A stretch of DNA of 64,000 nt from Eledone cirrhosa (taxonomy: Eukaryota): positions 35,774,001 to 35,838,000 of the forward strand of contig OZ024742.1 of assembly GCA_964016885.1 (NCBI GenBank). Direction: 5' to 3'. Made by a program: the position numbers and the translations under genes. Below the pieces are notes generated by a model. It ran no database searches and was not told where the DNA came from. It saw only the letters and a program-made list of their open reading frames with translations. How positions within the stretch are numbered: the stretch's first letter is position 1; the number at the start of each line of letters is the position of its first letter. Positions 1 to 48,488 of this stretch are shown one piece after another.

Positions 1-2127
1 AAAACCAGTATGACTCTAAAAACCGGTTTGTCTGTGTGTTTACATACAGAATAGCTGGCCACTCACAGTAAAGTGATCAGTGAAAAAAAAAAACTTGGTA
101 CATCTACATATGTATACGTGTGTGTATTCATATACATACTAGTATTTCAGTATACATATATGGATGTACATCTTTGACTTAATTGTTTGAGCGTCAGTCA
201 TACAAAAGTGAGTTACAAACGAAACGAAATTTAATTTCGTTTCGTTATTTGTTTTTATCGTCTCCGTTGAACCGGTACTTACTCACACTCTATGCAAGTT
301 GGTCTGCCCACTACTAATTTTCATAGAAAAAGCATATAGCGATATGTGCTTTTACGATTCTCTAGAGAGGCCGGAAGATAGGTAAATATTGCTGATGAGT
401 TGTAACAACAACGAAACTAGTTCAATATTCCTTGTCTGGCTTTCTGGAGAATAGAGGAAAGGTGTTTCCTCAAAAACCAGTATGACTCTAAAAACCGGTT
501 TGTCTGTGTGTTTACATACAGAATAGCTGGCCACTCACAGTAAAGTGATCAGTGAAAAAAAACTTGGTACATCTACATATGTATACGTGTGTGTATTCAT
601 ATACATACTAGTATTTCAGTATACATATATGGATGTACATCTTTGACTTAATTGTTTGAGCGTCAGTCATACAAAAGTGAGTTACAAACGAAACGAAATT
701 TAATTTCGTTTCGTTATTTGTTTTTATCGTCTCCGTTGAACCGGTACTTACTCACACTCTATGCAAGTTGGTCTGCCCACTACTAATTTTCATAGAAAAA
801 GCATATAGCGATATGTGCTTTTACGATTCTCTAGAGAGGCCGGAAGATAGGTAAATATTGCTGATGAGTTGTAACAACAACGAAACTAGTTCAATATTCC
901 TTGTCTGGCTTTCTGGAGAATAGAGGAAAGGTGTTTCCTCAAAAACCAGTATGACTCTAAAAACCGGTTTGTCTGTGTGTTTACATACAGAATAGCTGGC
1001 CACTCACAGTAAAGTGATCAGTGAAAAAAAACTTGGTACATCTACATATGTATACGTGTGTGTATTCATATACATACTAGTATTTCAGTATACATATATG
1101 GATGTACATCTTTGACTTAATTGTTTGAGCGTCAGTCATACAAAAGTGAGTTACAAACGAAACGAAATTTAATTTCGTTTCGTTATTTGTTTTTATCGTC
1201 TCCGTTGAACCGGTACTTACTCACACTCTATGCAAGTTGGTCTGCCCACTACTAATTTTCATAGAAAAAGCATATAGCGATATGTGCTTTTACGATTCTC
1301 TAGAGAGGCCGGAAGATAGGTAAATATTGCTGATGAGTTGTAACAACAACGAAACTAGTTCAATATTCCTTGTCTGGCTTTCTGGAGAATAGAGGAAAGG
1401 TGTTTCCTCAAAAACCAGTATGACTCTAAAAACCGGTTTGTCTGTGTGTTTACATACAGAATAGCTGGCCACTCACAGTAAAGTGATCAGTGAAAAAAAA
1501 CTTGGTACATCTACATATGTATACGTGTGTGTATTCATATACATACTAGTATTTCAGTATACATATATGGATGTACATCTTTGACTTAATTGTTTGAGCG
1601 TCAGTCATACAAAAGTGAGTTACAAACGAAACGAAATTTAATTTCGTTTCGTTATTTGTTTTTATCGTCTCCGTTGAACCGGTACTTACTCACACTCTAT
1701 GCAAGTTGGTCTGCCCACTACTAATTTTCATAGAAAAAGCATATAGCGATATGTGCTTTTACGATTCTCTAGAGAGGCCGGAAGATAGGTAAATATTGCT
1801 GATGAGTTGTAACAACAACGAAACTAGTTCAATATTCCTTGTCTGGCTTTCTGGAGAATAGAGGAAAGGTGTTTCCTCAAAAACCAGTATGACTCTAAAA
1901 ACCGGTTTGTCTGTGTGTTTACATACAGAATAGCTGGCCACTCACAGTAAAGTGATCAGTGAAAAAAAACTTGGTACATCTACATATGTATACGTGTGTG
2001 TATTCATATACATACTAGTATTTCAGTATACATATATGGATGTACATCTTTGACTTAATTGTTTGAGCGTCAGTCATACAAAAGTGAGTTACAAACGAAA
2101 CGAAATTTAATTTCGTTTCGTTATTTG

Positions 2128-2134
<7 letters not shown>
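1..2134 (+). mobile_element. Tandem array (~4.5 units, 469 bp) of a hammerhead-bearing retrozyme / PLE pLTR-like unit (family A); runs off the window start
   Basis: Near-identical units with period 469; one HHR per unit; ends in (TA)n. Confidence 0.9.
385..429 (+). ncRNA. Type I hammerhead ribozyme, family A (also 854-898, 1323-1367, 1792-1836)
   Basis: AAUAUUG-CUGAUGA-GUUG(UAACAA)CAAC-GAAA-CUAG-UU-CAAUAUU; 7-bp stem I, palindromic stem III. Confidence 0.9.
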
Positions 2135-2637
<503 letters not shown>

Positions 2638-2792
2638 CTTTCAATTTCTTTCTATCAAATTTTGTTATATATATATATATATTTATCTATTTATTTATAT
2701 ATATATATAGTTAATAAATGAAACAAACAAAACACAGGAGGCAATTTTACACAGTTATATATAAGTTCACGCTTGGGGGGAAGTGGAGGAGG

Positions 2793-2828
2793 TTTCAACG
2801 TTTCGGACAGAAGTCTTTCTTCGTGAAA
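2793..2828 (-). ncRNA. Degenerate minimal hammerhead-like motif
   Basis: UUUC-ACGAAGA-AAGAC(UUCU)GUCC-GAAA-CG-UU-GAAA; core positions 3-4 are non-canonical. Confidence 0.4.
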
Positions 2829-3413
2829 GTTCGGATAAGGAGAGAACAGTTACACGTAAGAATAGTGTAAGAAGGTTAGGAAAGGAAGTTTTAAAAAATA
2901 GTGGTAGGTGGGGGTTGAAAGTTCCGGCTTGTGGGGTGGGGGTTAGCATGGGTGTGTCGAAGGGGAGACATTGGTAGATGTGCGTGGCTTCTGTCTGTGT
3001 CCCAGATTTTGTAAAGTGAAGTCTGTGAGGTTTAAGTTTGTGTGTGTGCGTACGTGTGAGAGTGCTGGGTAGGGGCTTTTCTGTAAATGTTATATATCTA
3101 TATATATGGGAGTGGGGTATAATGTGGATTTAATAGAAACCTGTCTATTATGAAACCCTTAACAGTAGAAATGACGATCCTTGCGGCGACGGGAAGCAGA
3201 TTTTGGTGGTCTGTGACAGTAGTTTATATTATAAAGAATTTATTTGTTTTAAGGTGAGAAATGTGGAAGGGTTCTGGCACATCTCTGTCATTCTGTGAAA
3301 TACTTCTGTAAACATTTCAATAGTTTTTCCCTAGCCAGGCTCCCATCTTATCTAAAGACCAAAAAAACCCCCAGACATTATGGATGTAGGTTTGGCACAT
3401 ATTCAAACATACA

Positions 3414-3600: not shown

Positions 3601-4055
3601 AAACTTGCATACATAAATATATACATGCATATACACATATGTATACATATATGCACCCAAGCACATATATTCGACAATTAAACCCATCCCCTCTCTTGTG
3701 CGACACCAGAGCTCTTACCACCCCCCGTACCGTTCTTCTTCTTCTTCCTTTCTCTCTTTGTTTTTCTTTCTATATTTCCCTATTCTTTGTTTCCTTTTGT
3801 TTCCCCATTTTTTAATTATTTCTTAGAAATTGTAGATTGTTTCTATTAAAATATAGTAGCCATTGAAATTTACCCTCAGCGAAACCTTCCAGAGAGAAAT
3901 TAATTCATGTATAAACATTTATCTGTTAAAGTTATTTGTGTAAATGGTTTAAGAAGCTAACTAGAAATAATTGTTGGGAGACAGGCACATGGATAGATAA
4001 ATACACAAACAGACAAACAGATAGACAGTCAGACAGACAGATAGATAGATATGTT

Positions 4056-5218
4056 TCTTTTATTTGCCACCAGGGCATCAAAAGTGGGACAAGTACAAAG
4101 GGGGGAGTTTACACAAAAAGGCGTCCTCAATAAGGAGGAGGCAATAACAGTGTATAAAAATAAAATAAAATATAACAAAAAATAAAATTTATAACAAAGT
4201 CCTCAATAGAGAGGAGGCGCCTTGGGGGGTCGCACACACCCCCGAAAAAAGTGTGCAACCCTTTTCCTCAGGAGCACAGAGAGGGGGTGCTCCCTCGTTC
4301 ATTCCTCTTTTCCACCTACAGGCTTATGTAAAGAGAAGGCCCATTCACACGGGCCATTCTCGCCACTTTCACCAACCTTTCATAAAAACGACTGGGGTGG
4401 AGCACCTCTCTCTCCATCCTGATCCTTCTTCCGAAATGATATCGGAAGAAACGGACCAGTTGTTGGCCAGAGAGAAAGGTGCCTGACCTCAGTCCTTTCA
4501 GATGCGTCCACCATACAACTTCTTTCACCATGGCTATTACGCACAGAAACACCGCCTCTCCTTCATCTTTGAAGGGGGGAGGCGGCTTGATCATTACAAT
4601 AGACTCGGTGGTCAACCGGATCGGTCCCACCCTTGACAGCAGTTGTTCGACATAGCCCCACAGATCGGCTACGCCCGAGCAGTGTACCAATGCGTGTGCA
4701 ACGGTTTCCTCGTCGCACACGCATCTGGGACAGATCTTTTTGGCGGGGTCCCTACCCGGGCGCCCGTGTCTGTAGAGCTTTTCTCGAACGGGTAGAGCCC
4801 CTCGGTAGCACTGCCAGGCCAGGGACTTCTGGAAGTTGTCCATAGGTCCCGGGCTGAATGTCCTACCGAACAGGCTGGCCAGTTCGTCCTCCTCCATGTC
4901 TAGGGCTTCTCCGAGGGCGTCGTCGCACCTGCTGCGTACCAGCCCTCTATAGAATGTTGCGGTGGAGTCTCCACTGATAACCGGATCCGCCTGCCAGAGG
5001 GCGGTGAGCGCCTGGGCACACTCAGTGTGCCAGGCGCCCAGTTTTCTCGGTCTTTGCTTGACCCAGGATTGCAGCTCGGTGAGTGAGACGAGTCTGGGAA
5101 AGGTTCGTCTCACAAACGAGGCCCAAACCGGTTGACCGGTGAGGAATACCTGAAGGTGCCGTAGCCTTAATGCGTGTTTACGCATCATTAGCCACGGCAT
5201 CCCCAGCCCTCCTTTCGA
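4056..5218 (-). mobile_element. 5'-truncated Tx1/L1-like LINE copy (ORF2 C-terminus with Cys/His motif plus 3' UTR)
   Basis: ORF 4316-5200 with GGLGMP...CPRC..DEETVAHALVHC; paralogous to 5222-6370. Confidence 0.9.
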
Positions 5219-5462
5219 ATTCTATTTATTTGCCAGCAGGGCATCAAAGATTGGGACAAATACAAGGGGGGGGGGGAGTTTACATACATTTCAAAGGACG
5301 TGGAAAAACATATAACAAATAAAATTCAACAATCAAAGTCCTCAATAGGGAGGGGGCGTTGACGTGGGTCGCACATACCCCCGAAAAAAATGTGCAACCC
5401 TCCTCTTCAGGAGCACAAAGAGCGGGTGCTCCCTTTCTCTCCTCTTTCTTCTCCTCTCTCAC

Positions 5463-8400
5463 CTACAAGCTGATATAGAGAGTAGGCCCATTCACTCGGG
5501 CCATTCTCGCCACTTTCACCCACCTTTCATAAAACTTGCTGGGGTAGAGGACTTCTCTCTCTCTATTTTGATCCTTCTTCTAAAATGGTCCTTGAAAAAA
5601 AGGACCAGTTGTTGGCCGGAGAGAAAAGTGTCTGACCTCAGCCCTTTCAACCTTGTCCACCATACAACCTCTTTCGCCATAGCTATCACACAGCGGAAAA
5701 CCGCCTCTCCTTCGTTGTTGAAGGGGGGGGGGGGGGGGGGTTGATTGTGACAATGTACTCGGTGGTCAACCGGATTGGTCCCACCCACGACAGTAGTCGT
5801 TCCACATAGCCCCACAGGTCAGCAACACCCGGGCAGTGTACGAATGCGTGCGCGACGGTTTCCTCGTCACGCACGCATCTCGGACAGATCTTCTTCGAGG
5901 GGTCCCTACTCGGGCGCCCGTGTCTGTAGAGCTTGTCCCGATCGGGTAGAGCTCCTCGGTAGCACTGCCAAGCCAGGGACTTTTGGAAGTTGTCCATCGG
6001 TCCCGGGCCTAACGTCCTACCGAACAGACTGGCTAGCTCGTCTTCCTCCATGCCCAGAGCCTCTCCGAGAGCGTCGTCGCACTTGCTGCGCATCAACCCT
6101 CTATAGAATGTTGAGGTTGAGTCTCCACTGATTGCCGGATCCGCTTGCCAGAGGGCTGTGAGCGCCTGGGCACATTCAATGTGCCAGTCACCCATTTTTC
6201 TCGGTCTTTGCTTGACCCAGGATTGCAGCTCGGTGAGTGAGACGAGTCTCGGAAAGGCTCGCCTCACAAAAGGGGCCCACACCGGCTGACCGGTGAGGAA
6301 TACCTGGAGGTGCCGTAGCCTTAATGCGTGTCTACGCATCGTCAGCCATGGCATCCCCAGCCCTCCGTTCGAAGGGTGTTGACAGCAGATAGATCTTCTC
6401 ACCAAAGCGGCCCGCATTTTGGCGAGCGTTTTCGCTGGGCAAGGCACGACGGTCAAGCGGTAGTAGATGACGGACGCTATACCTCCGCTCGACCTTTCAG
6501 GGATAGTTTGCACTCGGCCCACTTCTGGGCGAGTGCAAACACCCTGCCCGTTACCTCGTCCCATCGTCCCAGCTTTTCTCGACCTGGAGGTCCGGTCCGA
6601 ACCAGACCCCGAGCAGCTTCACCGGTCTCTCCGTCCAGCGTCCGACGACGCCGTCGGAGGGCATCGGTTTGCATCTCCACTTTCCGAGTTGCAAACCGAC
6701 GGACTTGTCCCGGTTCAGCTTGGCTCCTGTAAACCTTTCGTATACCTCCAGTAAGGTGCCGATCTGCCCAATTTCCGAGGCGCACGACACCATTACTGTC
6801 ACGTCATCGGCGTAGGCCGACACCGCTTTCCGCAATCCCAGTTCCAAGGGGATTCTCTGCAACAGCTCCAACTTCCGCAGTAGTGGCTCGAGAGCCAGCA
6901 CATACAGAAGGGAGGAGAGAGGGCATCCCTGTCGGATGGATCGCGCGATTTGGAACGGCTCCGAGAGGTAGCCGTTCACCTTGACCCTCGAGCAGGTGTT
7001 GCTGTTGTGCATTGCAGCAATCCAGCCCATGAAAACGGGTCCGAAGCCTGCCGCCGAGAGCACCGCTTCCAGGTACCGATGGTCGACCCTATCGAACGCC
7101 TTAGATTGATCCAAGTTGATCAGGGCCCTACCAAAGCCGGGTTCGTTTCCCACCCTCTCTACGATGTATCGCATGAGGTGGAGGTTGTCGTGTATGGACC
7201 TGGACGGCATTGCGCATGTCTGCGCTTCTCCCACCAGGTTCCCGACGACAAGCGCCAACCTCTTCGATAACACCTTGGCCAAAATCTTTAACTCTGTGTT
7301 TAGTAGAGTTATGGGCCTGAAGTTATCTATGTCATCCCCCTTGTTCTCGTCCTTCCTCACCAGCGTGACTACGCCCTTGGTCACAGAACTGGGAATTCTC
7401 CCATTCTGTTGCCAGTTGCAGTAGACCGCCTCGAGGAGATCGGAGAACAAGTCCAGCACCGCTACATAAAGTTCGTATGGTAGACCATCGAGACCAGGAG
7501 ATTTGCGTTTGCCGCATAGGCTCAGCGCTTCCCCTATTTCAGCGGCTGAAATCGGCCTATTGCAGGACTTATCCTCCCCGCCCGAGAGCCGTGGCAGACC
7601 GTCGAGGTATGGACCGGAATCCATGGCCTCACCCGGCCCGCTGCCCCTCCCGAACAGTCGTGCAAAGCGCCGTTGAAAGGCCGCGCACATCCGCTCAGGT
7701 TCAAAGATCACGCGTCCATCCTGGTCCTTCAAAGACCGAATCGTGGACTTGTTTCCACTTTTTGTCTCTGTCACTTGGGCCCAGCTAAGATATTTGGCTC
7801 CCTCGTTACCTAGAGCACGTATTTTACTCCTGACAACGCAGCCCTCGTGCTTCGCCTCAAAGAACTGGTCTAGGGCCGTTCTTGACACCAGCACGCCGGC
7901 CACGTGGCCCCTCATAATCGCCTCTTTTACTCTATCTATCAATTGCCTTTCAGTTCTATTCCTATCTGATGCTAATTTCTGACTAAAACCTATCGATTCT
8001 ATTCTAATTTCTCTCTTGAGAGAGCCCCACCACCCGCTGTTGACAATTGCCCCCGTCAACTGCTTCTTAACTAGATAACTAATCCGCTTACTGTAAGCTT
8101 TGTTTGTCGGTAAGGACAAGTTTAGCTTCCAGTAACCGGGTCCTTGTCTATGGGTTCTATCAAGGTTGACCACTCCGGTCACCAGCTTGTGATCCGAATA
8201 GTCAACCATGAACATTCGTGGACAGCTTAATATGTTCCTATCTTTATTTCTAACTAGGAACCTATCTAGGTACGACCTAGATGTTCCCCTAAAATTAGTC
8301 CACGTCCACAGTGGCACAGTCGGAAAATCTAGTCGATATCTATCTGCCATATCAAATCGGCCGATTAACCGTTTGAGGCTGTTACACCCCCCTCTGTCGG

Positions 8401-8871
8401 GACATGCCCCTACATAGTCCCAACGTGCATCCAGGATATCATTCCAGTCCCCCACTAAAAGCAAGGAGTGAGACGTTCCCAGAAAAGTCTCTAGGCGTTG
8501 GAAGAAGTCCGGTCGCGGTGTCCCAGCTGGGGCATACGTTGCCACCAGCCTGAAGGCTCCACCTTCACTACTGCCTACGTCTAGAACCACCAGTCGACCC
8601 TCCGGGTCCAGGTGTACATTCCGTGTTGCGAGGCCCGGGTGTTTTCGCAGCAGAACGACCACCCCGCCCCCACCCCCGGCTGACAGAGAGATGCATAGAT
8701 CTCAAAGTCGTCGAAGATGGGGGGAGCCAGTTGGTGCTCGCTGCTGATCCTGGACTCGCAAATAGCTATCACATCCATTCTGTGCGACCAGAGGTCATTT
8801 AAAAGTTTGCCCTGCTTCGAGGACCACCCCAGGCCGCGCACATTTAAACATCCAACTCTTATAACAGCCAT
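5463..8871 (-). pseudogene. ORF2 endonuclease / reverse transcriptase, frameshifted
   Basis: LNVRGL, VGDWN, LDRF, SDH (APE); PGLDGLP, FRPITLLN, KAFDRV, RQGCPLS, YADD (RT); split over ORFs 8581-8919, 6551-8662, 6477-6785, 5686-6564, 5516-5815. Confidence 0.93.
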
Positions 8872-10164: not shown

Positions 10165-10255
10165 CGAAGGAAATGTGGTAAGGAACCAGGTGGACCATAA
10201 CGCACCAAAGTACTCAATACTTGAGGTAGTAGAGTGGGTAATAGGAACCAGTAAG

Positions 10256-10349
10256 ACCCCGACAGCTGAGCTCAAGCCGTTTCGACGGCTAATTCTGGAC
10301 TAAATGAACATTTATCCTGGTATTTAAATAGCCGATCTTCTCAAGGGGT
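10256..10349 (-). ncRNA. Type I hammerhead, U3-A8 core variant (family D)
   Basis: Reverse complement of 12199-12292. Confidence 0.8.
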
Positions 10350-12198
10350 AATTCCATATATGGTCAAAGTGATTGTCAAAAATCAGTAGTAATTCTGTGG
10401 TTGCAAATTAGTAGGGGAGATGGTGGCTAAACCTGCCAGTAGGAGAAAGAGGGGAGGGGGTGGAGTAGACCCAATCAAGCGTTGGTAGTGCCAGCTACAG
10501 CTGGGCATGAGGTCAAAGAAGATACAGGGGAGGGGGAGGGGGAGGAAGTCGGAACGGTAGGTAGAACAATGGGGGGTAAAAATAGGAAAGAAAAAATACT
10601 GAGAGTGAAGAAAAGCAAAAAAGTGTAAAGAAAAAATTAAATTCTACGACCTAGGTGTCAGGCTATTGTTAGGCGAGAATAAAATAAAGAAAGAAAGAAA
10701 GAAGTAAATAAATAAATAAATAAATAAATAAGGAAATAAGTAAAAGAACTAGGTGGGACGAATTAAGCAAGGACCCTTTTAAGAGGTATAAGTACGTAAA
10801 TGATACGGTGACTGGTCAACAAAAGGGGCCAAAATACTAAAGAGACTACCACGAAATAAACAATAAAGGTTTCCATCCCGGGCCAGCAACGACCCAGTGC
10901 AGCAAAGTGAACTTGTACGACATAATAATTCTGAGTCCCGGGAAAAATATATACTAATGCTAACTCTAAAAGATCTAAAACAAGCTACATGAAAGTTCGT
11001 ACGAAATAAAGGTAGAATACGGAGAAATAAGTTCAGAATCCACCCCGCCCAGAAGAAAAGCGAAGCAAGAAATACTGAAACGAAAAAATAAGGCATAAGT
11101 GCCACTAAGAAATAAAGAGGGCACAGAGAATAGTGGGAGCGGTCGGAAAAGGGGGGCAAGTATCCGGGGTCTAAGCCAACTGCTATAAAGGGCGGAGTCC
11201 GCCAAATCTATCAAAGACTAGGGGAGGGGGGAGTGGGGGTACTAAGGCTACATGGGGCCAAAGGGCAGCCTCGGGTGGGCGAGAAAAGACGCCGACAAAG
11301 GAGAAGTACCCCCACTCCCCCCTCCCCTAGTCTTTGATAGATTTGGCGGACTCCGCCCTTTATAGCTGTTGGCTTAGACCCCGGATACTTGCCCCCCTTT
11401 TCCGACCGCTCCCACTATTCTCTGTGCCCTCTTTATTTCTTAGTGGCACTTATGCCTTATTTTTTCGTTTCAGTATTTCTTGCTTCGCTTTTCTTCTGGG
11501 CGGGGTGGATTCTGAACTTATTTCTCCGTATTCTACCTTTATTTCGTACGAACTTTCATGTAGCTTGTTTTAGATCTTTTAGAGTTAGCATTAGTATATA
11601 TTTTTCCCGGGACTCAGAATTATTATGTCGTACAAGTTCACTTTGCTGCACTGGGTCGTTGCTGGCCCGGGATGGAAACCTTTATTGTTTATTTCGTGGT
11701 AGTCTCTTTAGTATTTTGGCCCCTTTTGTTGACCAGTCACCGTATCATTTACGTACTTATACCTCTTAAAAGGGTCCTTGCTTAATTCGTCCCACCTAGT
11801 TCTTTTACTTATTTCCTTATTTATTTATTTATTTATTTATTTACTTCTTTCTTTCTTTCTTTATTTTATTCTCGCCTAACAATAGCCTGACACCTAGGTC
11901 GTAGAATTTAATTTTTTCTTTACACTTTTTTGCTTTTCTTCACTCTCAGTATTTTTTCTTTCCTATTTTTACCCCCCATTGTTCTACCTACCGTTCCGAC
12001 TTCCTCCCCCTCCCCCTCCCCTGTATCTTCTTTGACCTCATGCCCAGCTGTAGCTGGCACTACCAACGCTTGATTGGGTCTACTCCACCCCCTCCCCTCT
12101 TTCTCCTACTGGCAGGTTTAGCCACCATCTCCCCTACTAATTTGCAACCACAGAATTACTACTGATTTTTGACAATCACTTTGACCATATATGGAATT

Positions 12199-12292
12199 AC
12201 CCCTTGAGAAGATCGGCTATTTAAATACCAGGATAAATGTTCATTTAGTCCAGAATTAGCCGTCGAAACGGCTTGAGCTCAGCTGTCGGGGT
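12199..12292 (+). ncRNA. Type I hammerhead, U3-A8 core variant (family D)
   Basis: ACCCC-UUGAGAA-GA(U)CGGCUA...UAGCCGUC-GAAA-CGGCU(UGAGCUC)AGCUG-UC-GGGGU. Confidence 0.82.
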
Positions 12293-12302
12293 CTTACTGG
12301 TT

Positions 12303-12375
<73 letters not shown>

Positions 12376-17345: not shown

Positions 17346-17557
17346 GATTTGCCAGTGCTCCTCGCTATATTGCTATCTTTTGCTCTGGTAGCGTCTCTTT
17401 TTACCACTCTTTCGCCTGCATTTTGTTCTATGTGGTCTAAAATATGGTGTATTACGTGCTTGTGTATTTTTTCTCTTTCATTTTTCCTTTCCCTTTCCTT
17501 TGTATATATTATATTTATTAGTGTTTTCATTTTGTAATCATTATATTAATTTTTTAT

Positions 17558-17747
17558 GGCGGTGGATTGGCAGTAGCGGTAGGGGTCTGACGCCATGCTT
17601 TGCAGCAAAGAGTTACAGCCCTTTATGGTCTGAGTTCAAATCCTGCCGAGGTTATCTTTGCCTTTCATCCTTACGGGGTCGATAAAATAAAGTACCAGTA
17701 ATGCACTGGGATAATTGCTGACCTTGTGCCAAAAGTAAAAACAATTA
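17558..17747 (+). mobile_element. tRNA-derived SINE (main family of the window)
   Basis: A-box TGGCAGTAGCGGTAG, B-box GAGTTCAAATCC, body GCCTTTCATCCTTACGGGGTCGATAAAATAAAGTACCAG. Confidence 0.85.
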
Positions 17748-17989
17748 TATTAAATTTTTATACAAATGAGTTTAAAAAAGAAAAGAGTTAAACTGTGTTG
17801 TTAATAAATAAATAAAACGTTATACTTGTTTTACCCTCCCATTTCCAATTCACCGAACGCTGCTATCATGACTGTATGTGTGTGTTTGTGTAAATGTATA
17901 TGCGTGAAAGTATGTGAATGTATGTCCGTGAGGGTCTATTTTTATAGTCTGTGTTTGTGCGATTATAGTTACAATATATATATATATAT

Positions 17990-18522: not shown

Positions 18523-18541
18523 TATATATATATATATATAT

Positions 18542-20863
<2,322 letters not shown>

Positions 20864-20908
20864 AGTACGTCAAACATGTTAAATTCGGCTTCGTTTATTA
20901 TAAATTCT

Positions 20909-20955
20909 CTGCTATATATATTTCAGTGACAACCATTATTGGCCTCATCAGACAG
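20909..20955 (-). ncRNA. Family C hammerhead with apparent stem II deletion
   Basis: CUGU-CUGAUGA-GGCCAAUAAUGGUUGUCACU-GAAA-UAUAUA-UA-GCAG. Confidence 0.55.
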
Positions 20956-21650
20956 TACGAATTAATGTAGAAAAAAAGGTAAACATGGTGTTGAAATGTG
21001 TTCCACTCTGTCAATTCATCGATATCTCCAGCTCGTAGGTGTGTTGTTAGTCCTCTGTGGAACTGCATCATATAATAAACGAAGCCAAATTTAACATGTT
21101 TGACTTACTTATTTTACATTACTCCGGAGTAAACAAACCAAGCTGCGTACTTCGTCGAGTGCTCCAACCTGCATACTGAAGTGTCGGTAAACAACCAACA
21201 CATACTCAAAATTTATATATATATGTATATATATATGTCACAGTCACTACTCTCTTTATATACTCACACATACAATCTCTCTTTCTTGCTCTAGCAATTT
21301 TATAAAATCAAAGAACAAAAATATACACACACGCACACACATCAGCGTGTTGAAAAAAATCCGAATCGCTTCAGCTTTCTCTTTCACTCGCTCTCTATAT
21401 ATATAGTATAGATATACCGGAAGTATTGAAATTTGAATTTTTTAAAAGAAGTGAGTCTTGAACTATGCAATAATATTTTAAATATATGTTTAATCATGTG
21501 TTACAAAATTTAGTAGATAAATTATGTAATATTCATTCATTATTTATTCAAAGTAATCCAACTTATTTTACAAACGGGATAACAAATTATATTCTGGATG
21601 CAGCCCCGCACTCTTTACTTTATTATAGTTAAGATATATATATATACATA

Positions 21651-23945: not shown

Positions 23946-23987
<42 letters not shown>

Positions 23988-24072
23988 TTGAAATAAAATG
24001 AAAACGAAATTTCATTTCTCACTCTTAGTACGGCACTTACTTACTTACATATATATATATATATATATATAT

Positions 24073-34406: not shown

Positions 34407-35580
34407 TCAGGCGATCAGATCCCGACTCTTAATCGACACCTCCTCAGATGATGTAAGGATGAGTATGTCATCTACATATCGGGTGAAGAAGGCATGGGAA
34501 TGGCAGGTGTTGAGGGCTCGGCATTCTAGCTGGTTCATGTAGGTGATGGCCAGCAGGCCCGATAGGCTGGATCCCATGGGTAATCCTGTTGTCTGTCTGT
34601 ATGTGTGGTGGTGGAAGGTGAAGTACGTGTTGTCTACTGTGAAGGACAAAAGCTGGTGTATGTCCGTCGGGTGGAGGCCGTAGCAGTGGATGTCCTCTGC
34701 GACCACGCAGTCCGTCAATAAATCGACAGCTGGATGAGCGGGGACTGTAGTGTAGAGGGAGACAACGTCGAGGCTAAAAGCGTATTTATTTAGTTTAAGT
34801 TGTTCTGGCTGGAGTTGGTGTAGTCTACGTATAACTTCGTCGGAGCTACTGACATGCCCGGGAAAGGTCGAGAGTAGAGGCTTGAGGACCTGGGAGAGGA
34901 GCCAGGAAATTTTGTATAGGGGTCCTTCTATGCTAGAGACGATGGGTCTTATTTGCGTCTTAGTACTATTCTTGTGGGTCTTGATGAGGTGGTAGAAAGT
35001 GGGCAGTCTGCTATTTCTAGTGGTGTAGTTGAGCTTAACTTTATTTGGGAGTTGTCTTCTCCTACAGATATCGAACCAAATGGAGTTGGTCTGTTTTTCG
35101 ATCTGGGCTGCAGTCATGTCCGGGATCTCGGTGTATAATTCATTGTCGCTTAGGTGTTCAAAGGCTAGGTTATTGTATGTGGCTTGAGAGATGACGCAAA
35201 ACTCTTTACCTTTGTCGGGTGGTAAGTATATAAGTTCCCTATTCCGTAGGTTCTTCAGGGCGAGTTGTTGTGTCCTTGAGAGGTTTGGGGCTATCTTCTT
35301 CTGTTTCCGTAAGATGTTAAATACGGAATGTTTTAGTCTCGAGAGTTTTTCTTCAAGCTCGCGGTTGGCAGGCGGTGGACAGAGTGGGCGATCTAGTTGG
35401 TATATCGGGAATCTGGGTTTGATAGATTCCGTGGTGTTGTTGTCGAGAGTCGATATCCATTTTAGTTGGTAGGCAGTCCGACAGAAATTCGTTTCTATGT
35501 CGAGCCATAATTTGTCGTCCAGTCTCTGTTTCAATATGAACTTGGGACCCAGGCTGAGGAGGTCTAATTCCTCTCGGGAG
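34407..35580 (-). pseudogene. Penelope-like reverse transcriptase, truncated just after YVDD
   Basis: DKG, FYHLIKTHK, IRPIVS, SLDVVSLYTTVP, GLPMGSSLSG, RYVDD. Confidence 0.92.
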
Positions 35581-35715
35581 ATATTATCTCGAACATTAAG
35601 GACATTTAAATAAATCTAAGGTAAAAGACGAATTGTCAACAATATCTTTTGCAATTGCATTCTTTTTTCTATGTCCATACCTGCATTGTTTTGGCTTTAT
35701 TATACATATTCAAAC

Positions 35716-35780
<65 letters not shown>

Positions 35781-35850
35781 TAAGTTATTCCGGGTTGAAA
35801 ATATATATATATATATTACACACACACACACTCACACACACACACACACA

Positions 35851-35936
<86 letters not shown>

Positions 35937-36087
35937 GCAAGATGGTTGGATAACATCCATGAGCTTGGCTGGTCTCGCTTGGGGATTCAGCTGGAACAGT
36001 TGGAGACGGTAGCTTCTGATTGATAGGACCCGTTGGAAGGTGTGTTTGAGGACTCTGACCCTACGACCCTCTCACGAATATCTGGGA

Positions 36088-36161
36088 GAAGAAGAAGAAG
36101 AAGAAGAAGAAGAAGAAGAAGAAGAAGAAGAAGAAGAAGAAGAAGAAGAAGAAGAAGAAGA
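36088..36161. repeat. (AAG)n microsatellite
   Basis: Direct reading. Confidence 0.95.
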
Positions 36162-36772
36162 TATAGTTTTTCATTAACACCAACTATATTGTTTAATGTC
36201 ACGCTTGTTTGCATCTAAACGTCCTGTAATAATTAATGAAATATGTAATGAGAATTAGTAATAATGATATAATTATCAATTTTCATTAAATAATTCATAG
36301 GTAACCGCTGCAGTCGTTTTCTTTTCTCTGTTTCATCTTTTAAAATAAAAATATAACTCTACAAACAATTACGGAAGACATAACGTCCGTTGTTAAAATA
36401 TAATTACACGAAGTATTATGGTGTTGTCAGTAGGTTTCCGGTTTGTATGTGTTTAATGGAAATGCATATGTAGCTGATTATCACTGGTAACATCCACCAT
36501 AGAGAGTTAGTCTACAGAATGAAACATCATTGTATTATTTGTCGGACGCCATGGTTTGTAGCATAGAGTTACGCACCTTTATGGTCTGAGTTCAAATCCC
36601 GCCGAGGTTAACTTTGCCTTTTATCCTTACGGGGTGGATAAAATAAAATACCAGTAATGTACTGCATTAATTCTGGTCTTGTGCCAAAAGTAGAAACAGT
36701 TATTTGTGAACGGTTCTTTCACAGGCTTACAGGACTCAAAAGCCATTTGAGAATCAAGTCAGTATTATGTCG

Positions 36773-36972
36773 NNNNNNNNNNNNNNNNNNNNNNNNNNNN
36801 NNNNNNNNNNNNNNNNNNNNNNNNNNNNNNNNNNNNNNNNNNNNNNNNNNNNNNNNNNNNNNNNNNNNNNNNNNNNNNNNNNNNNNNNNNNNNNNNNNNN
36901 NNNNNNNNNNNNNNNNNNNNNNNNNNNNNNNNNNNNNNNNNNNNNNNNNNNNNNNNNNNNNNNNNNNNNNNN
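36773..36972. other. Assembly gap (200 N)
   Basis: Run of n. Confidence 1.
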
Positions 36973-39179
<2,207 letters not shown>

Positions 39180-40385: not shown

Positions 40386-42882
40386 TAAGATGTATGGTAG
40401 GTCGTATGTGAATCGCGATGATCACGTCTGACTTACCAAATATGTGACGGTAGCTAGTTAAGCTCTATGCGTATAAGCAGAGCAGAAATATTAGTGAAAA
40501 AGAACAAAGGAACTATTATGACATTATAACAAGTTTATTGCCGACAGCCGTTTCGTCCGACCCCATGGTGGGACTTATCAAGGCATATAACATGTGATTG
40601 CAAGATCATTGTTTACATCAACGTATCACTCAAGGCTAGCAGTTTGAAATTGTGGTATACATCAGCAACTCCGCTTGTGTAGTTGGGGTCTATATTCTAA
40701 GGGGGCTCTTTTATAATAGTTGTCGGGGTCAGAGATTGAAGTTTAAAAATTAGACAATAATATATAATTTACGCATCAACATTAAACCAAAAGACTTGGG
40801 GTCCCGTAGAAGCACCTTAGAAAATCCCTCAATGAGTGCATAAAGCTTACAGGCTCCAATAAACCTACTAGACTAGAAGAAGATTAAGAGGCTAATAAAA
40901 TTAAAAAAATAAAAATAAAAAATAATAAAAAAAAATTTAAAATAAAAAAAAATAAAATAAAAAAAAAAAAATAAATAAAAATATAAAGTTTCCCTAAAAA
41001 ATATATAAAGTTCCTATGAAATTCCTTCTAGAGAAAAAAAAAAAAATTTTCCGAAAGAAAAAAATCTTCCCGAGAAACCTTGGACTTAGAACCGACAGAC
41101 TCGTCTATCGCGAAAGCGTTCAACCCCTGAAACTAAAAGATCGAACGGACCACTTCCGGCAACCACTGGCTATTGGATCCACAGGTACATCTCCCAGAGA
41201 GTCCACGCAGATAATAGTGAATCCCAGGTGATCCATGAACTTTTAAACGAGACCAGCTGCGCCTGGAGCTATGCAGATGACGACATACGCATAATGGATA
41301 TCGTGCCTGGAGCTATGCAGATGACTGCATAAGCAGAATGGATATCGCGCCCACACGGTCACCAGTACTGTTCATCCTGCTGTATGTATGTAGGCATCCG
41401 TGCGCGGGATATCCCTGATTACATTTTCTTGACCATCAATTGTTAATCGATTGTTTGTTATTTAGGCAGGAATATACCATTGTGTCTGTGCTAATCCTAT
41501 GTGTTGCTGTGTGTGTGTAAAGTATCCGAGCGCGGGATATCCCTGAGCTAATTTTGCCTGACCGTTAATAGTGTTCTGATTACTTGTTGATTGGGCAGGA
41601 ATATATATTGTTGTCTTTGTTGATCCTGTATCAATCATTTTGTGATAATTTTGTAATAATTTCGTGATAATTTTGTAATAATTTTGCGATAATTTTATGA
41701 TAATTTGATAATTTTGTAATAATTTTGTGGTAATTTTATGATGATTTGATAATTTTGTAATGATTTTGTGGTAATTTTGTAATAATTTTGTAATAATTTT
41801 TAATCCTGTATCAATAATTTTAGAATAATTTTTTTTGTGATAATACACTGTTAGATCACTGAAGCTACCTTATACCTTCTTAAAAATACATTTTATAATT
41901 ATTGTCATTTTGCTTATGTATTTTCTTATTTACCACTTTCTTTAATCTTGCCCAACTTGATAAACTCCTTGAATTGCTCCCTAATTCAATTACTTAAATT
42001 ACTTAGATTATTGTATCTATTATGCCTAAGTTGTATCTGTTGAAGTAGCCCTTTGAAAATTCCTCGGATATCCCAAATACCGTAATTTTTAATTTTTTAA
42101 TTTTTTAATTTTTAACTTTTAATGTATAGTTTTCCTCAATTCGTTTTTATATATATCCTTAGAGGCTCTCTAAAATGTTAATTCTTCGAAGGGTCTCTCG
42201 GAAGAAGTTCCTATTGGAAATATTAAAGGGGCCTTTTCTGAGAGATTTATAGAAGGCTCTCAGAATTAAACTCTAATTGATTAGTTTCTTTCAACTTAGT
42301 TTTCAATTCAGTTTTCTGAATTTTGTAAACGTGATCTCGGGGGAAGGTTTTTTTTCTTTCGGAAAAACATTTTTTTTTCTCTAGAAGGAATTTCATAGGA
42401 ACTTTATATATTTTTTATTTTTTATTTTTTTATTTTATTTATTTATTTATTTATTTATTTTTTTTTTTTTTATTAGCCTCTTAATCTTCTTCTAGTCTAG
42501 TAGGTTTATTGGAGCCTGTAAGCTTTATGCACTCATTGAGGGATTTTCTAAGGTGCTTCTACGGGACCCCAAGTCTTTTGGTTTAATGTTGATGCGTAAA
42601 TTATATATTATTGTCTAATTTTTAAACTTCAATCCCTGACCCCGACAACTATTATAAAAGAGCCCCCTTAGAATATAGACCCCAACTACACAAGCGGAGT
42701 TGCTGATGTATACCACAATTTCAAACTGCTAGCCTTGAGTGATACGTTGATGTAAACAATGATCTTGCAATCACATGTTATATGCCTTGATAAGTCCCAC
42801 CATGGGGTCGGACGAAACGGCTGTCGGCAATAAACTTGTTATAATGTCATAATAGTTCCTTTGTTCTTTTTCACTAATATTA
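40383..42882. mobile_element. Fold-back PLE-like element (family I): ~550-bp inverted arms around an ~11-bp TAATTTTGT-type minisatellite
   Basis: Arms ~40487-41075 and ~42335-42880; minisatellite 41635-41845; (TA)n flanks. Confidence 0.8.
42783..42829 (+). ncRNA. Type I hammerhead, U3-A8 core variant (family I; also 40539-40585 -)
   Basis: UGCC-UUGAUAA-GUCC(CACCAUGGGGUC)GGAC-GAAA-CGGCUG-UC-GGCA. Confidence 0.85.
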
Positions 42883-45378: not shown

Positions 45379-46430
45379 CTATCCGTTGGGGTATATCGTG
45401 GGGCTGTAATACAGGAAAGTTTTGTGCAATTTATGTTTACAAGCCGAAATTGCCTCGGATTTTTTGTTTAAGATGTGGTCTGTGGTGTACAGTGTTTCCA
45501 GGGCCTCAGCGGCGCAGAGGTCACATGGTCTTTTATTTCCGTAATACGATCTAGCCCTAGCTAGGATCTCCCAGTGTAACTTATATTGGGTGTGGTTGTC
45601 TTTTAGACTCCAGATATAAGCTGAAAGTGACGTCATATTCCTTCTTAGAGGGTAACGAAAAGAATGGGTATGCATGTAAAGACGCTGCTTGAAACTATTG
45701 GCGGTTAACCCTATGTAGGCCCTACGGGACGTGGGTGTTACAACCTTACATTTGTAGACAATGTTACTAGAGAGGCATTTACCGGATAGGGGCAATCAGC
45801 CCGATTCCTGCAATTACAGTTAGTACTAACTACAGGGTTGCACGTGTTCCTACGGCTAGGTAGTTTAGCTAAATTTGAAGCTGTGATGTTATGTGCAAGG
45901 TTAGGAGTCGTAGAGTAAGAAATTTTAATAGTATTTCTATTAAAAATTTTACTATATTTATGTGTAGGGGGGAAATGCTTCGTAATAAGGGAAAGAAAGA
46001 TCTTAGCTAATGGTGTGGCCACCTCCATATTATATGGTGGGTTAAACCAACAAATGCGACGGGATCTATTTCTTCTAGGTCTATTTTCGTACTCTGTATA
46101 AGCTACTATATCGACAAATCCACTTCGAGCAAGAGCTTCATTGTAATAAGTGGAATGGTCGTTGAAAATGCGCTCGTTGGTGGAAAGACGGGAAAGCCTC
46201 AACGAAACGTTTTTTACCAGGTTCTTGGTTATGCTGGCAGGATGGTTGGAATGCTTACTTATGTAATTAAACGTATCATTCGGCTTTCTATACGGGTAAT
46301 ACAACCCATTCAATAAATTGAGGGTAACGTCGAGGTAATTAACGACCGAGAGATTGGCCTCAACCTGTATAGAGAGGTTGAAGCCTTTAAAGAAGGCTGT
46401 GAGTTCTTTTCTGAACCTGTCGCAAGCACG
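45379..46430 (-). pseudogene. PLE RT-thumb plus GIY-YIG endonuclease (Nematis-like by motif), frameshift near 45790
   Basis: NYLDVTL, YRKP, SNHP, WFNPPY, CNCR..CPLSGKC, IVY...YIGLT..FKQR..H, CDLC..E. Confidence 0.88.
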
Positions 46431-46690
46431 AGGTCCGCACTTAGTCATGGTACAAACCACCGCCCGCGTTGGAGAATTCGTCCTTGATAGAGAAAAGAAG
46501 GAAAAGGCCAATAAGATCAGTAACCTCCGCAGAGTCACTGGCGCCCATACTCACGTCGAATGGGGTGCTATTGGATTTTTTAATCCAAATAGAGTCGTCG
46601 AAATTAATCACCGATATATATTTTCCTTATCGAGCCCTCTTTGGATTTTAGTCTTCAATTTTATTATTATTACTATATATTTATATATAT

Positions 46691-48486
46691 ATAAAAACAA
46701 ATAACGAAACGAAATTAAATTTCGTTTCGTTTGTAACTCACTTTTGTATGACTGACGCTTAAACAATTAAGTCAAAAATGTACATCCACATATGTATACT
46801 GAAATACTAGTATGCATATGAATACACATACGTATACATATGTAGATGTACCGAGTTTTTCACTGGTCACTTTACTGTGAGTGTCCAGCTATTCTGTATG
46901 TAAACACACAGACAAACCGGTTTTTAGAGTCATACTGGTTTTTGAGGAAACACCTTTCCTCTATTCACCAGAAAGCCAGACAAGGAATATTGAACTAGTT
47001 TCGATGTTGTTACATCTCATCAGCAATATTTACCTATCTTCCGGCCTCTCTAGAGAGTCGTAAAAGCACATATCGTTATATGCTTTTTCTATGAAAATTA
47101 GTAGTGGGCAGACCAATTTGCATAGAGCGTGAGTACGTACCGGTTCAACCGAGACGATAAAAACAAATAACGAAACGAAATTAAATTTCGTTTCGTTTGT
47201 AACTCACTTTTGTATGACTGACGCTTAAACAATTAAGTCAAAAATGTACATCCACATATGTATACTGAAATACTAGTATGCATATGAATACACATACGTA
47301 TACATATGTAGATGTACCGAGTTTTTCACTGGTCACTTTACTGTGAGTGTCCAGCTATTCTGTATGTAAACACACAGACAAACCGGTTTTTAGAGTCATA
47401 CTGGTTTTTGAGGAAACACCTTTCCTCTATTCACCAGAAAGCCAGACAAGGAATATTGAACTAGTTTCGATGTTGTTACATCTCATCAGCAATATTTACC
47501 TATCTTCCGGCCTCTCTAGAGAATCGTAAAAGCACATATCGTTATATGCTTTTTCTATGAAAATTAGTAGTGGGCAGACCAATTTGCATAGAGCGTGAGT
47601 ACGTACCGGTTCAACGGAGACGATAAAAACAAATAACGAAACGAAATTAAATTTCGTTTCGTTTGTAACTCACTTTTGTATGACTGACGCTTAAACAATT
47701 AAGTCAAAAATGTACATCCACATATGTATACTGAAATACTAGTATGCATATGAATACACATACGTATACATATGTAGATGTACCGAGTTTTTCACTGGTC
47801 ACTTTACTGTGAGTGTCCAGCTATTCTGTATGTAAACACACAGACAAACCGGTTTTTAGAGTCATACTGGTTTTTGAGGAAACACCTTTCCTCTATTCTC
47901 CAGAAAGCCAGACAAGGAATATTGAACTAGTTTCGATGTTGTTACATCTCATCAGCAATATTTACCTATCTTCCGGCCTCTCTAGAGAATCGTAAAAGCA
48001 CATATCGTTATATGCTTTTTCTATGAAAATTAGTAGTGGGCAGACCAATTTGCATAGAGCGTGATTTAATTTCGTTTCGTTATTTGTTTTTATCGTCTCC
48101 GTTGAACCGGTACGTACTCACGCTCTATGCAAATTGGTCTGCCCACTACTAATTTTCATAGAAAAAGCATATAACGATATGTGCTTTTACGATTCTCTAG
48201 AGAGGCCGGAAGATAGGTAAATATTGCTGATGAGATGTAACAACATCGAAACTAGTTCAATATTCCTTGTCTGGCTTTCTGGAGAATAGAGGAAAGGTGT
48301 TTCCTCAAAAACCAGTATGACTCTAAAAACCGGTTTGTCTGTGTGTTTACATACAGAATAGCTGGACACTCACAGTAAAGTGACCAGTGAAAAACTCGGT
48401 ACATCTACATATGTATACGTATGTGTATTCATATGCATACTAGTATTTCAGTATACATATGTGGATGTACATTTTTGACTTAATTG

Positions 48487-48488
<2 letters not shown>
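46691..48488 (-). mobile_element. Family A array, 466-bp subtype: ~3 units (-) plus an inverted partial unit (48064-48488 +)
   Basis: Period 466; HHRs at 46986-47030, 47452-47496, 47918-47962 (-) and 48220-48264 (+); (TA)n flanks. Confidence 0.9.

What the first reader, a model, noticed from the sequence alone, without database searches (positions are those of the whole stretch)
2085..2140. Fixed insertion terminus far from the cleavage site: hairpin plus TAT joined to (AT)n
Seen: both family A arrays stop at the same base (..TTATTTGTTTTTAT then (AT)n; 2134 and 46691), just after the hairpin AACGAAACGAAAT-TTA-ATTTCGTTTCGTT and about 305 nt downstream of the HHR site. Family B ends analogously (ATGAAATTTCGTTTTCAT..CAACTTAT then (AT)n; 18542, 19652, 23985). 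In both families the unit continues TAT|CGT. Inference: a cis signal for internal, microhomology-primed initiation of reverse transcription on a circular or multimeric template.
Basis: partly seen in the sequence, partly recalled or inferred. Interest (0 to 1): 0.7.

Follow-up and report, generated by a model that had tools for sequence, protein, structure and literature searches.

The report
Retrozyme inserted from two fixed starts
The fixed end noted here is one of two: copies of this small repeat with a ribozyme motif sit back to back in AT repeats, one arm ending at this site and the other about 72 bases upstream, likely because a Penelope-type retrotransposon enzyme copies the RNA from both sides of a DNA cut, starting at two internal sites.

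Summary
The end at 2134 and 46691 is real, but it is half of the pattern. The 469-nt hammerhead repeat (an animal retrozyme, family A) inserts as two head-to-head arms.

In 25 insertions picked by a ribozyme motif, 45 of 46 ends fell at these two sites and none at the ribozyme cut. All 20 two-ended insertions had one of each. Genome-wide forward-strand counts: 979 long, 867 short, 2 at the ribozyme cut. Flanks fit an 11-12 bp target duplication in (AT)n. Family B and two ORF-bearing Penelope-like families follow the same rule.

The 72-nt difference is the known Penelope 'tail'. Internal initiation at two sites is published in vitro (PMC11167929). Microhomology is only 1-3 nt and does not choose the site.

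Likely mechanism: both ends of a staggered cut prime reverse transcription, at two structure-defined sites on a multimeric or circular RNA. No partner enzyme was identified and no RNA was examined. The scan noted this footprint before on other DNA of this genome.

Verdict: new member of a known kind; the strict long+short pairing is the useful, testable detail.

The parts
1..2134 (+). Family A long arm (469-nt units; arm continues left of the window, 4658 nt in all), ends at the long site u469. Its inverted partner arm (759 nt, ends u395) lies left of the window in L058
1793..1835 (+). Minimal type I hammerhead motif (stem I, CUGAUGA core, stem II, GAAA, palindromic ACUAGU stem III); predicted cut after 1829 (u164). 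Also at 392, 861, 1330
   Evidence: sequence; motif scan; fold z -3.3; stem II U-A to A-U in array 2. No Rfam hit at gathering score
2054..2067 (+). Small hairpin CTTAA/TT(A,G)AG; its loop (2059-2064, u394-399) is the short end of the partner arms
   Evidence: read by eye from the sequence in A; predicted fold in B; end positions
2060..2134 (+). The 70-75 nt 'tail' between the short and long ends, present on one arm only
2084..2089 (+). Helix P1 5' strand GTGAGT; in a continuing RNA it is predicted to pair with ACTCAC at u23-28 (as 1615-1620 with 1688-1693), beyond the terminus
   Evidence: GUGAG/CUCAC 67, GUGGG/CCCAC 28, GUGGG/CUCAC 5, GUGAG/CCCAC 0 of 127 B-type segments
2094..2122 (+).
2123..2134 (+). 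Single-stranded U-rich linker holding the long end; the last TAT is shared with the target
2132..2163 (.). (AT)n target, holding one copy of the inferred 11-12 bp duplication
46691..48064 (-). Family A insertion 2, long arm (ends u469 at 46691)
48064..48488 (+). Family A insertion 2, short arm (ends u398, then (AT)n)
18540..19176 (.). Family B insertion: 42-nt long arm on -, partner arm on + with hammerhead at about 19009-19049; its right end is not canonical
19650..20820 (.). Family B two-armed insertion: long end at 19650 (-), short end CATACTTAC| at 20819-20820 (+)
23983..24048 (.). Family B mini-insertion: long end at 23983 (-), probably a 5-9 nt short arm ending at 24048
   Evidence: read by eye
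34407..39020 (.). Comparison element, family C: broken ORF-bearing Penelope-like copies (RT at 34407-35615), short end at 35719, long end at 39020, 43-nt tail

Best explanation
This is a non-coding hammerhead repeat (animal retrozyme) whose insertions are two head-to-head arms ending at two fixed sites about 72 nt apart, likely made by a Penelope-type enzyme that primes reverse transcription from both ends of a staggered cut in (AT)n. Shown: the two ends, the one-long-one-short pairing, variable 5' ends joined head to head, arms of up to 13 units, flanks fitting an 11-12 bp duplication. Predicted: the long site lies in a single-stranded linker of a three-way junction that spans it, the short site in the loop of the hairpin just upstream. 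Inferred: a RT/GIY-YIG protein, probably a dimer, binds this structure; the cut leaves 11-12 nt 3' overhangs; one overhang is placed at each site, with 1-3 nt of pairing setting the register only; both polymerases run along an uncleaved multimer or a ligated circle; the two cDNA ends are then joined, giving the inversion.
For: 25 sites chosen by a motif upstream of the ribozyme cut: 24 long ends, 21 short ends, 1 other, 0 at the cut; 20 of 20 two-ended insertions are long+short (0.5^20 if ends were drawn independently). 38 distinct sites chosen by the long end: partner short in 24, long in 0. Genome-wide forward counts 979 long, 867 short, 2 at the cut. Duplication: 47 of 49 pairs fit 11-12 bp, 41 fit 13-14, 35 fit 14-15; five sites share a non-alternating duplicated word (L032, L050, L061, L065, L141). 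Same rule in family B (16 pairs read by hand), family C (8 of 8 visible pairs among 30 loci) and family D (4 of 4 among 30). Partner arms differ by 1.3% against 6.8% between insertions; the partner is the nearest arm in 26 of 41. In 3 loci both outermost units share variants absent from inner units (L132, L139, L313). Published: a purified Penelope-like protein cuts and extends both strands, starts at two internal sites whose spacing is the tail, and is predicted to be a dimer (PMC11167929).
Against: No autonomous element with an A- or B-like end was found, so the enzyme is inferred from the footprint. Neither expression nor ribozyme cleavage was tested. One short+short insertion exists (L299; its two flanks are mirror copies, so possibly a later inverted duplication). 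About a fifth of sites are one-armed (4 of 25; 9 of 38). Two of 49 pairs do not fit 11-12 bp (L145, L064). PMC11167929 saw no difference in start site between top and bottom strands in bulk, which does not show pairing per event. Two B arms are joined head to head to family D arms (L261, L265), so arms need not always come from one RNA. The folds of the terminus are only modestly better than shuffles (z -1.5 in A, -2.3 in B), and the compensatory change may be a single inherited event.
Confidence: 0.7

Rival explanations
1. One primed event plus fold-back: the inverted arm comes from self-priming (on an antisense template or the cDNA), and the tail from endonuclease resolution of the intermediate, as proposed in PMC3846280 and PMC8557442.
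For: Published model for the same anatomy. Local fold-back products occur beside some one-armed copies (L134, L041).
Against: The two 5' ends are not symmetric: 4 of 41 lie within 15 nt of each other against 3.3 expected by shuffling. Both arms can be several units long, and either can be the longer (26 of 43 long>short). In vitro both strands are extended and the tail equals the distance between two start sites.
Confidence: 0.15
2. The long end is the true 3' end of the RNA (for example polymerase III stopping at the T5 run), primed as in SINEs.
For: Family A has TTTTT just before the end, after a hairpin; the long end is precise to about one base.
Against: It cannot explain the second fixed end or the pairing. 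Family B has no T run before its end. The predicted P1 helix needs sequence beyond the end. Arms read through the site many times.
Confidence: 0.07
3. A DNA rolling-circle element of the Helitron kind: a hairpin about 12 nt before a fixed 3' end, AT target, tandem arrays.
For: Hairpin-to-end spacing and tandem arrays resemble Helitron ends (recalled, not tested against a library).
Against: Two different outward-pointing ends, an 11-12 bp duplication, no fixed 5' end, a hammerhead with a compensatory change, and RT-bearing Penelope-like elements with the same footprint.
Confidence: 0.04
4. The ends are breakpoints of later recombination or assembly slippage at AT-rich words.
For: All ends abut (AT)n.
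Against: The better AT matches in the unit (up to 6 nt at u372; a long AT tract inside B) are not the standard ends. About a thousand forward-strand junctions sit at each site.
Confidence: 0.04

Closest known systems
Animal non-LTR retrozymes (Cervera and de la Pena 2020, PMC7229834; Li, Clavereau and Pollet 2026, 10.64898/2026.07.22.740005)
   Same: Tandem units of a few hundred bases, low GC, one type I hammerhead per unit, no long ORF, duplication longer than 4 bp, Penelope-like elements in the same genome.
   Different: In the parts I read, those papers do not describe fixed ends, head-to-head arms or tails. Circular RNA was shown there and not tested here.
Endonuclease-bearing Penelope-like elements (Arkhipova et al. 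2013, PMC3846280; Craig et al. 2021, PMC8557442)
   Same: Inverted 5'-truncated copy, head-to-head layout, tail on one end only, duplication of 8-10 bp reported, (TA)n targets reported for Naiad.
   Different: No RT or endonuclease ORF; tail 70-75 nt in A and about 60-63 in B against 30-40; both arms multimeric; duplication 11-12 bp; pairing counted here and nearly strict.
Poseidon element of Anolis in vitro (Frangieh et al. 2024, PMC11167929)
   Same: Two internal start sites defining the tail, a stem-loop start, AT-rich target, both strands extended, ribozyme cleavage not needed.
   Different: That work reports no strand difference in start site and start sites without homology to the target; here each insertion carries one end of each kind, with 1-3 nt of possible pairing.
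L1 twin priming (recalled, no call)
   Same: Both target strands prime, giving a 5' inversion joined by short homology.
   Different: In L1 the first primer uses the poly(A) end and the second a variable site; here both sites are fixed and internal and both arms can exceed one unit.

Membership tests
Animal non-LTR retrozyme | Tandem units of about 150-1000 nt | tested here: met
   469-nt period; B 464-515 nt
Animal non-LTR retrozyme | Type I hammerhead motif in each unit | tested here: met
   found by motif and fold, no Rfam hit at gathering score
Animal non-LTR retrozyme | No protein-coding capacity | tested here: met
   No ORF of 150 aa in the arrays; a 68-codon frame in subfamily B2 has no credible relative
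Animal non-LTR retrozyme | Self-cleavage and circular RNA in vivo | not testable with these tools
   Needs RNA data or a cleavage assay
Penelope-like insertion footprint | Inverted 5'-truncated copy, head to head | tested here: met
   21 of 25 sites two-armed
Penelope-like insertion footprint | Tail on one end only | tested here: met
   20 of 20 and 24 of 24 resolved pairs; one short+short exception outside these sets (L299)
Penelope-like insertion footprint | Target duplication of about 8-12 bp in AT-rich DNA | tested here: met
   most flanks are pure (AT)n and give only upper bounds; five sites are informative
Penelope-like element (autonomous) | RT plus GIY-YIG ORF | tested here: not met
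   A and B are non-autonomous
Non-autonomous derivative of a named Penelope-like family | Shared terminal repeat with an autonomous element | tested here: inconclusive
   Families C and D have unrelated ends; searches were swamped by retrozyme copies
Helitron-type DNA element | Fixed 5' end, one 3' end, no target duplication (features recalled) | tested here: not met

The most novel reading that the evidence does not exclude
Penelope-type integration is an obligatory asymmetric double priming: one protein dimer holds one RNA structure and feeds the two target overhangs to two different sites on the same repeat of the same RNA, so the tail, the inversion and the duplication are one event, and retrozymes spread by keeping only this two-site module plus a ribozyme.
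Probability: 0.4. Interest if true: 0.72.

Novelty: new member of a known kind. Interest (0 to 1): 0.48.

Why it matters
How Penelope-like elements make their inverted arms and one-sided tail is named as open in PMC8557442, and what moves animal retrozymes is proposed rather than shown in PMC7229834 and the 2026 preprint. Thousands of young copies of a 469-nt unit give a counted footprint (two sites, mixed pairing, 11-12 bp duplication) and a small RNA template with a predicted structure. That turns both questions into a direct in vitro test. Each ingredient is known; the pairing rule and its transfer to retrozymes were not in the papers found by my searches.

Tried and rejected
RNA evidence: no RNA holder listed. 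Contigs of four runs were laid; loose AT ends appear at 1196, 1665 and 2060 in one run, which may be the assembly's own sample, so this is not counted as support.

Partner search: a 40-kb family B cluster with spaced hammerheads is a higher-order satellite without ORF. Hammerheads of the same stem III type gave only A, B and older B subfamilies or unrelated hits among 30 loci. The 68-codon B2 frame returned one repetitive, spurious protein and only retrozyme-type hits in the genome (150 of 35860 candidates scored). The Atlas gave no answer. Families C and D have unrelated ends.

Structure counts on the MAFFT alignment were dropped because it misaligned P1 between A and B; pairs were counted by anchor instead. 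The AT-collapsed mapping of B arms broke at the masked tract and was used only as a cross-check.

5' ends at the ribozyme cut, expected for linear monomers: 4 of 82 against 1.9 expected, no pile-up. Circle versus multimer stays open: 115 singleton against 12 shared variants in 29 loci fits either.

Full report
Observation. The window opens in a 469-nt tandem array with a minimal type I hammerhead motif in each unit (Rfam gave no hit). The hairpin, the TAT|CGT continuation and the family B ends are as described. A and B are related; B also has a hammerhead. G000 holds 7507 exact copies of a 23-mer just upstream of the A ribozyme core and 1980 exact long junctions.

The second end. I fetched all 25 sites covered by the first 100 hits, a choice blind to where arms end. 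Twenty-one are two-armed and head to head. In 20 both outer ends are resolved, and each has one arm ending at u468-u1 and the other at u394-399; three of these partner arms are only 12-14 nt (L035, L042, L054) and one more is similarly short (L056). One has a disrupted end and four are one-armed. Of 46 ends, 24 are long, 21 short, 1 elsewhere, none at the ribozyme cut.

Larger samples. In 39 loci chosen by the long end (38 distinct; L132 and L133 are one duplicated copy) the partner is short in 24 and long in none; 9 are one-armed, 4 aberrant, 1 unresolved. Both window insertions are long+short. Genome-wide forward counts are 979 long, 867 short and 2 at the cut (the reverse count is inflated by repeated matches). 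Among 20 further loci, several picked because both ends were already listed and so no test, one is short+short with mirror-image flanks (L299).

Other families. Family B gives 16 long+short pairs and no like pair among those I could resolve by hand (part was cut from view); its long end scatters a little more (u456-466). Family C, an RT-bearing Penelope-like element in this window with a 43-nt tail, gives 8 of 8. Family D, young and with open frames up to about 1200 aa, has three ends and gives 4 of 4 long-or-middle plus short. The rule belongs to Penelope-type integration in this genome, not to this hairpin alone.

Target. Allowing for shared bases, 47 of 49 pairs fit an 11-12 bp duplication, with a fall to 41 and 35 at longer lengths; two do not fit. 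Pure (AT)n flanks give only bounds, but five sites duplicate a non-alternating word. I infer a staggered cut with 11-12 nt 3' overhangs.

What marks the sites. Folding puts the long site in an unpaired linker of a three-way junction whose closing helix joins GUGAG upstream of the hairpin with CUCAC about 25 nt beyond the end (pair probability 0.75 in A and mostly above 0.9 in B and B2). Among 127 B-type segments the helix reads GUGAG/CUCAC 67 times, GUGGG/CCCAC 28, GUGGG/CUCAC 5 and GUGAG/CCCAC never; this may be one inherited change. It implies that the template runs past the terminus. The short site lies in a hairpin loop. Homology to (AT)n is 3 nt at the long site and about 1 nt at the short sites, while 13 positions with 4-6 nt are unused, and family C often joins CC to ATAT. 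Position looks set by structure or protein, not by pairing.

Template. Arms reach 13 units, cross the ribozyme site freely, and their 5' ends scatter, so the template is an uncleaved multimer or a ligated circle. Partner arms are far more alike than arms of different insertions (1.3% against 6.8%). In three loci the outermost units of both arms share variants that inner units lack, as expected if both primers began on the same repeat of one heterogeneous RNA; by my rough count that is about 1 in 24 by chance, and gene conversion is not excluded. Two head-to-head B/D chimeras point the other way or reflect later insertion with resection.

Literature, with what I saw. PMC11167929 (parts 1-2 of 4 and a term search; supplements not read): two internal start sites that define the tail, both strands cut and extended, dimer predicted, ribozyme dispensable. 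PMC8557442 (passages): inverted 5' copy, tail often at one end, (TA)n targets, mechanism open. PMC3846280 (passages): head-to-head repeats, 8-10 bp duplications, self-priming model. PMC7229834 (passages and section 17): retrozymes, circular RNA, Penelope-like elements as candidate movers. Preprint 10.64898/2026.07.22.740005 (parts 1-3 of 5; supplements not seen): retrozymes related to Penelope terminal repeats. Searches for twin priming or head-to-head retrozymes gave nothing relevant; subscription papers and unread supplements could hold it. Earlier notes of this scan describe the same footprint for other families in this genome; I had reached the reading before looking, and they are not independent support.

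Verdict. A real, ordinary-class element: a retrozyme with a Penelope footprint. The counted long+short pairing with an 11-12 bp duplication is the part worth testing. The enzyme, the RNA form and the dimer model remain inferred.

Noticed in passing
L261 (about 800-3300) and L265 (about 930-3200): A family B arm is joined head to head to a 5'-truncated, young ORF-bearing Penelope-like element (family D), each arm with its own proper end. Either two RNAs were used in one insertion or a later insertion resected the flank; D is a candidate partner.
   Followed up: partly
L125, L146, L187, L107: A or B arms run into, or are joined to, the ends of other Penelope-like families (one with an RT/GIY-YIG remnant in L125).
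   Followed up: partly
window 34407-39020: Two broken copies of an ORF-bearing Penelope-like family with a hammerhead-like motif, a 43-nt tail and a 1.5-kb inverted repeat; an N gap lies at 36773-36972.
   Followed up: yes
L218:1540-1809, L204:1369-1572: Subfamily B2 has a 68-codon open frame starting in the tail, about 11 codons before the long end, where Penelope ORFs start; possibly an ORF remnant. No relative found.
   Followed up: partly
L101-L103 (G000:C2:60.57-60.60 Mb): Family B has become a satellite of at least 35 kb with a higher-order period near 4 kb.
   Followed up: partly
L172; window 18636-18769: Family B carries an internal (AT)n tract that is itself a target; a family A copy sits in it in L172.
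   Followed up: no
L134, L041: One-armed insertions with a short inverted copy of neighbouring DNA at the 5' joint, suggesting fold-back of the (AT)n overhang.
   Followed up: no
window 10241-12307, 40487-42881, 2157-2542 with 20810-21236: Further inverted-repeat elements beside AT-rich tracts, possibly more two-armed insertions.
   Followed up: no
window 4055-8701 and 45738-46550: Broken non-LTR retrotransposon (endonuclease plus RT) and a fragment of another Penelope-like ORF.
   Followed up: no
window 17536-17752 and about 12 other places: Abundant repeat of about 190 nt, SINE-like.
   Followed up: no
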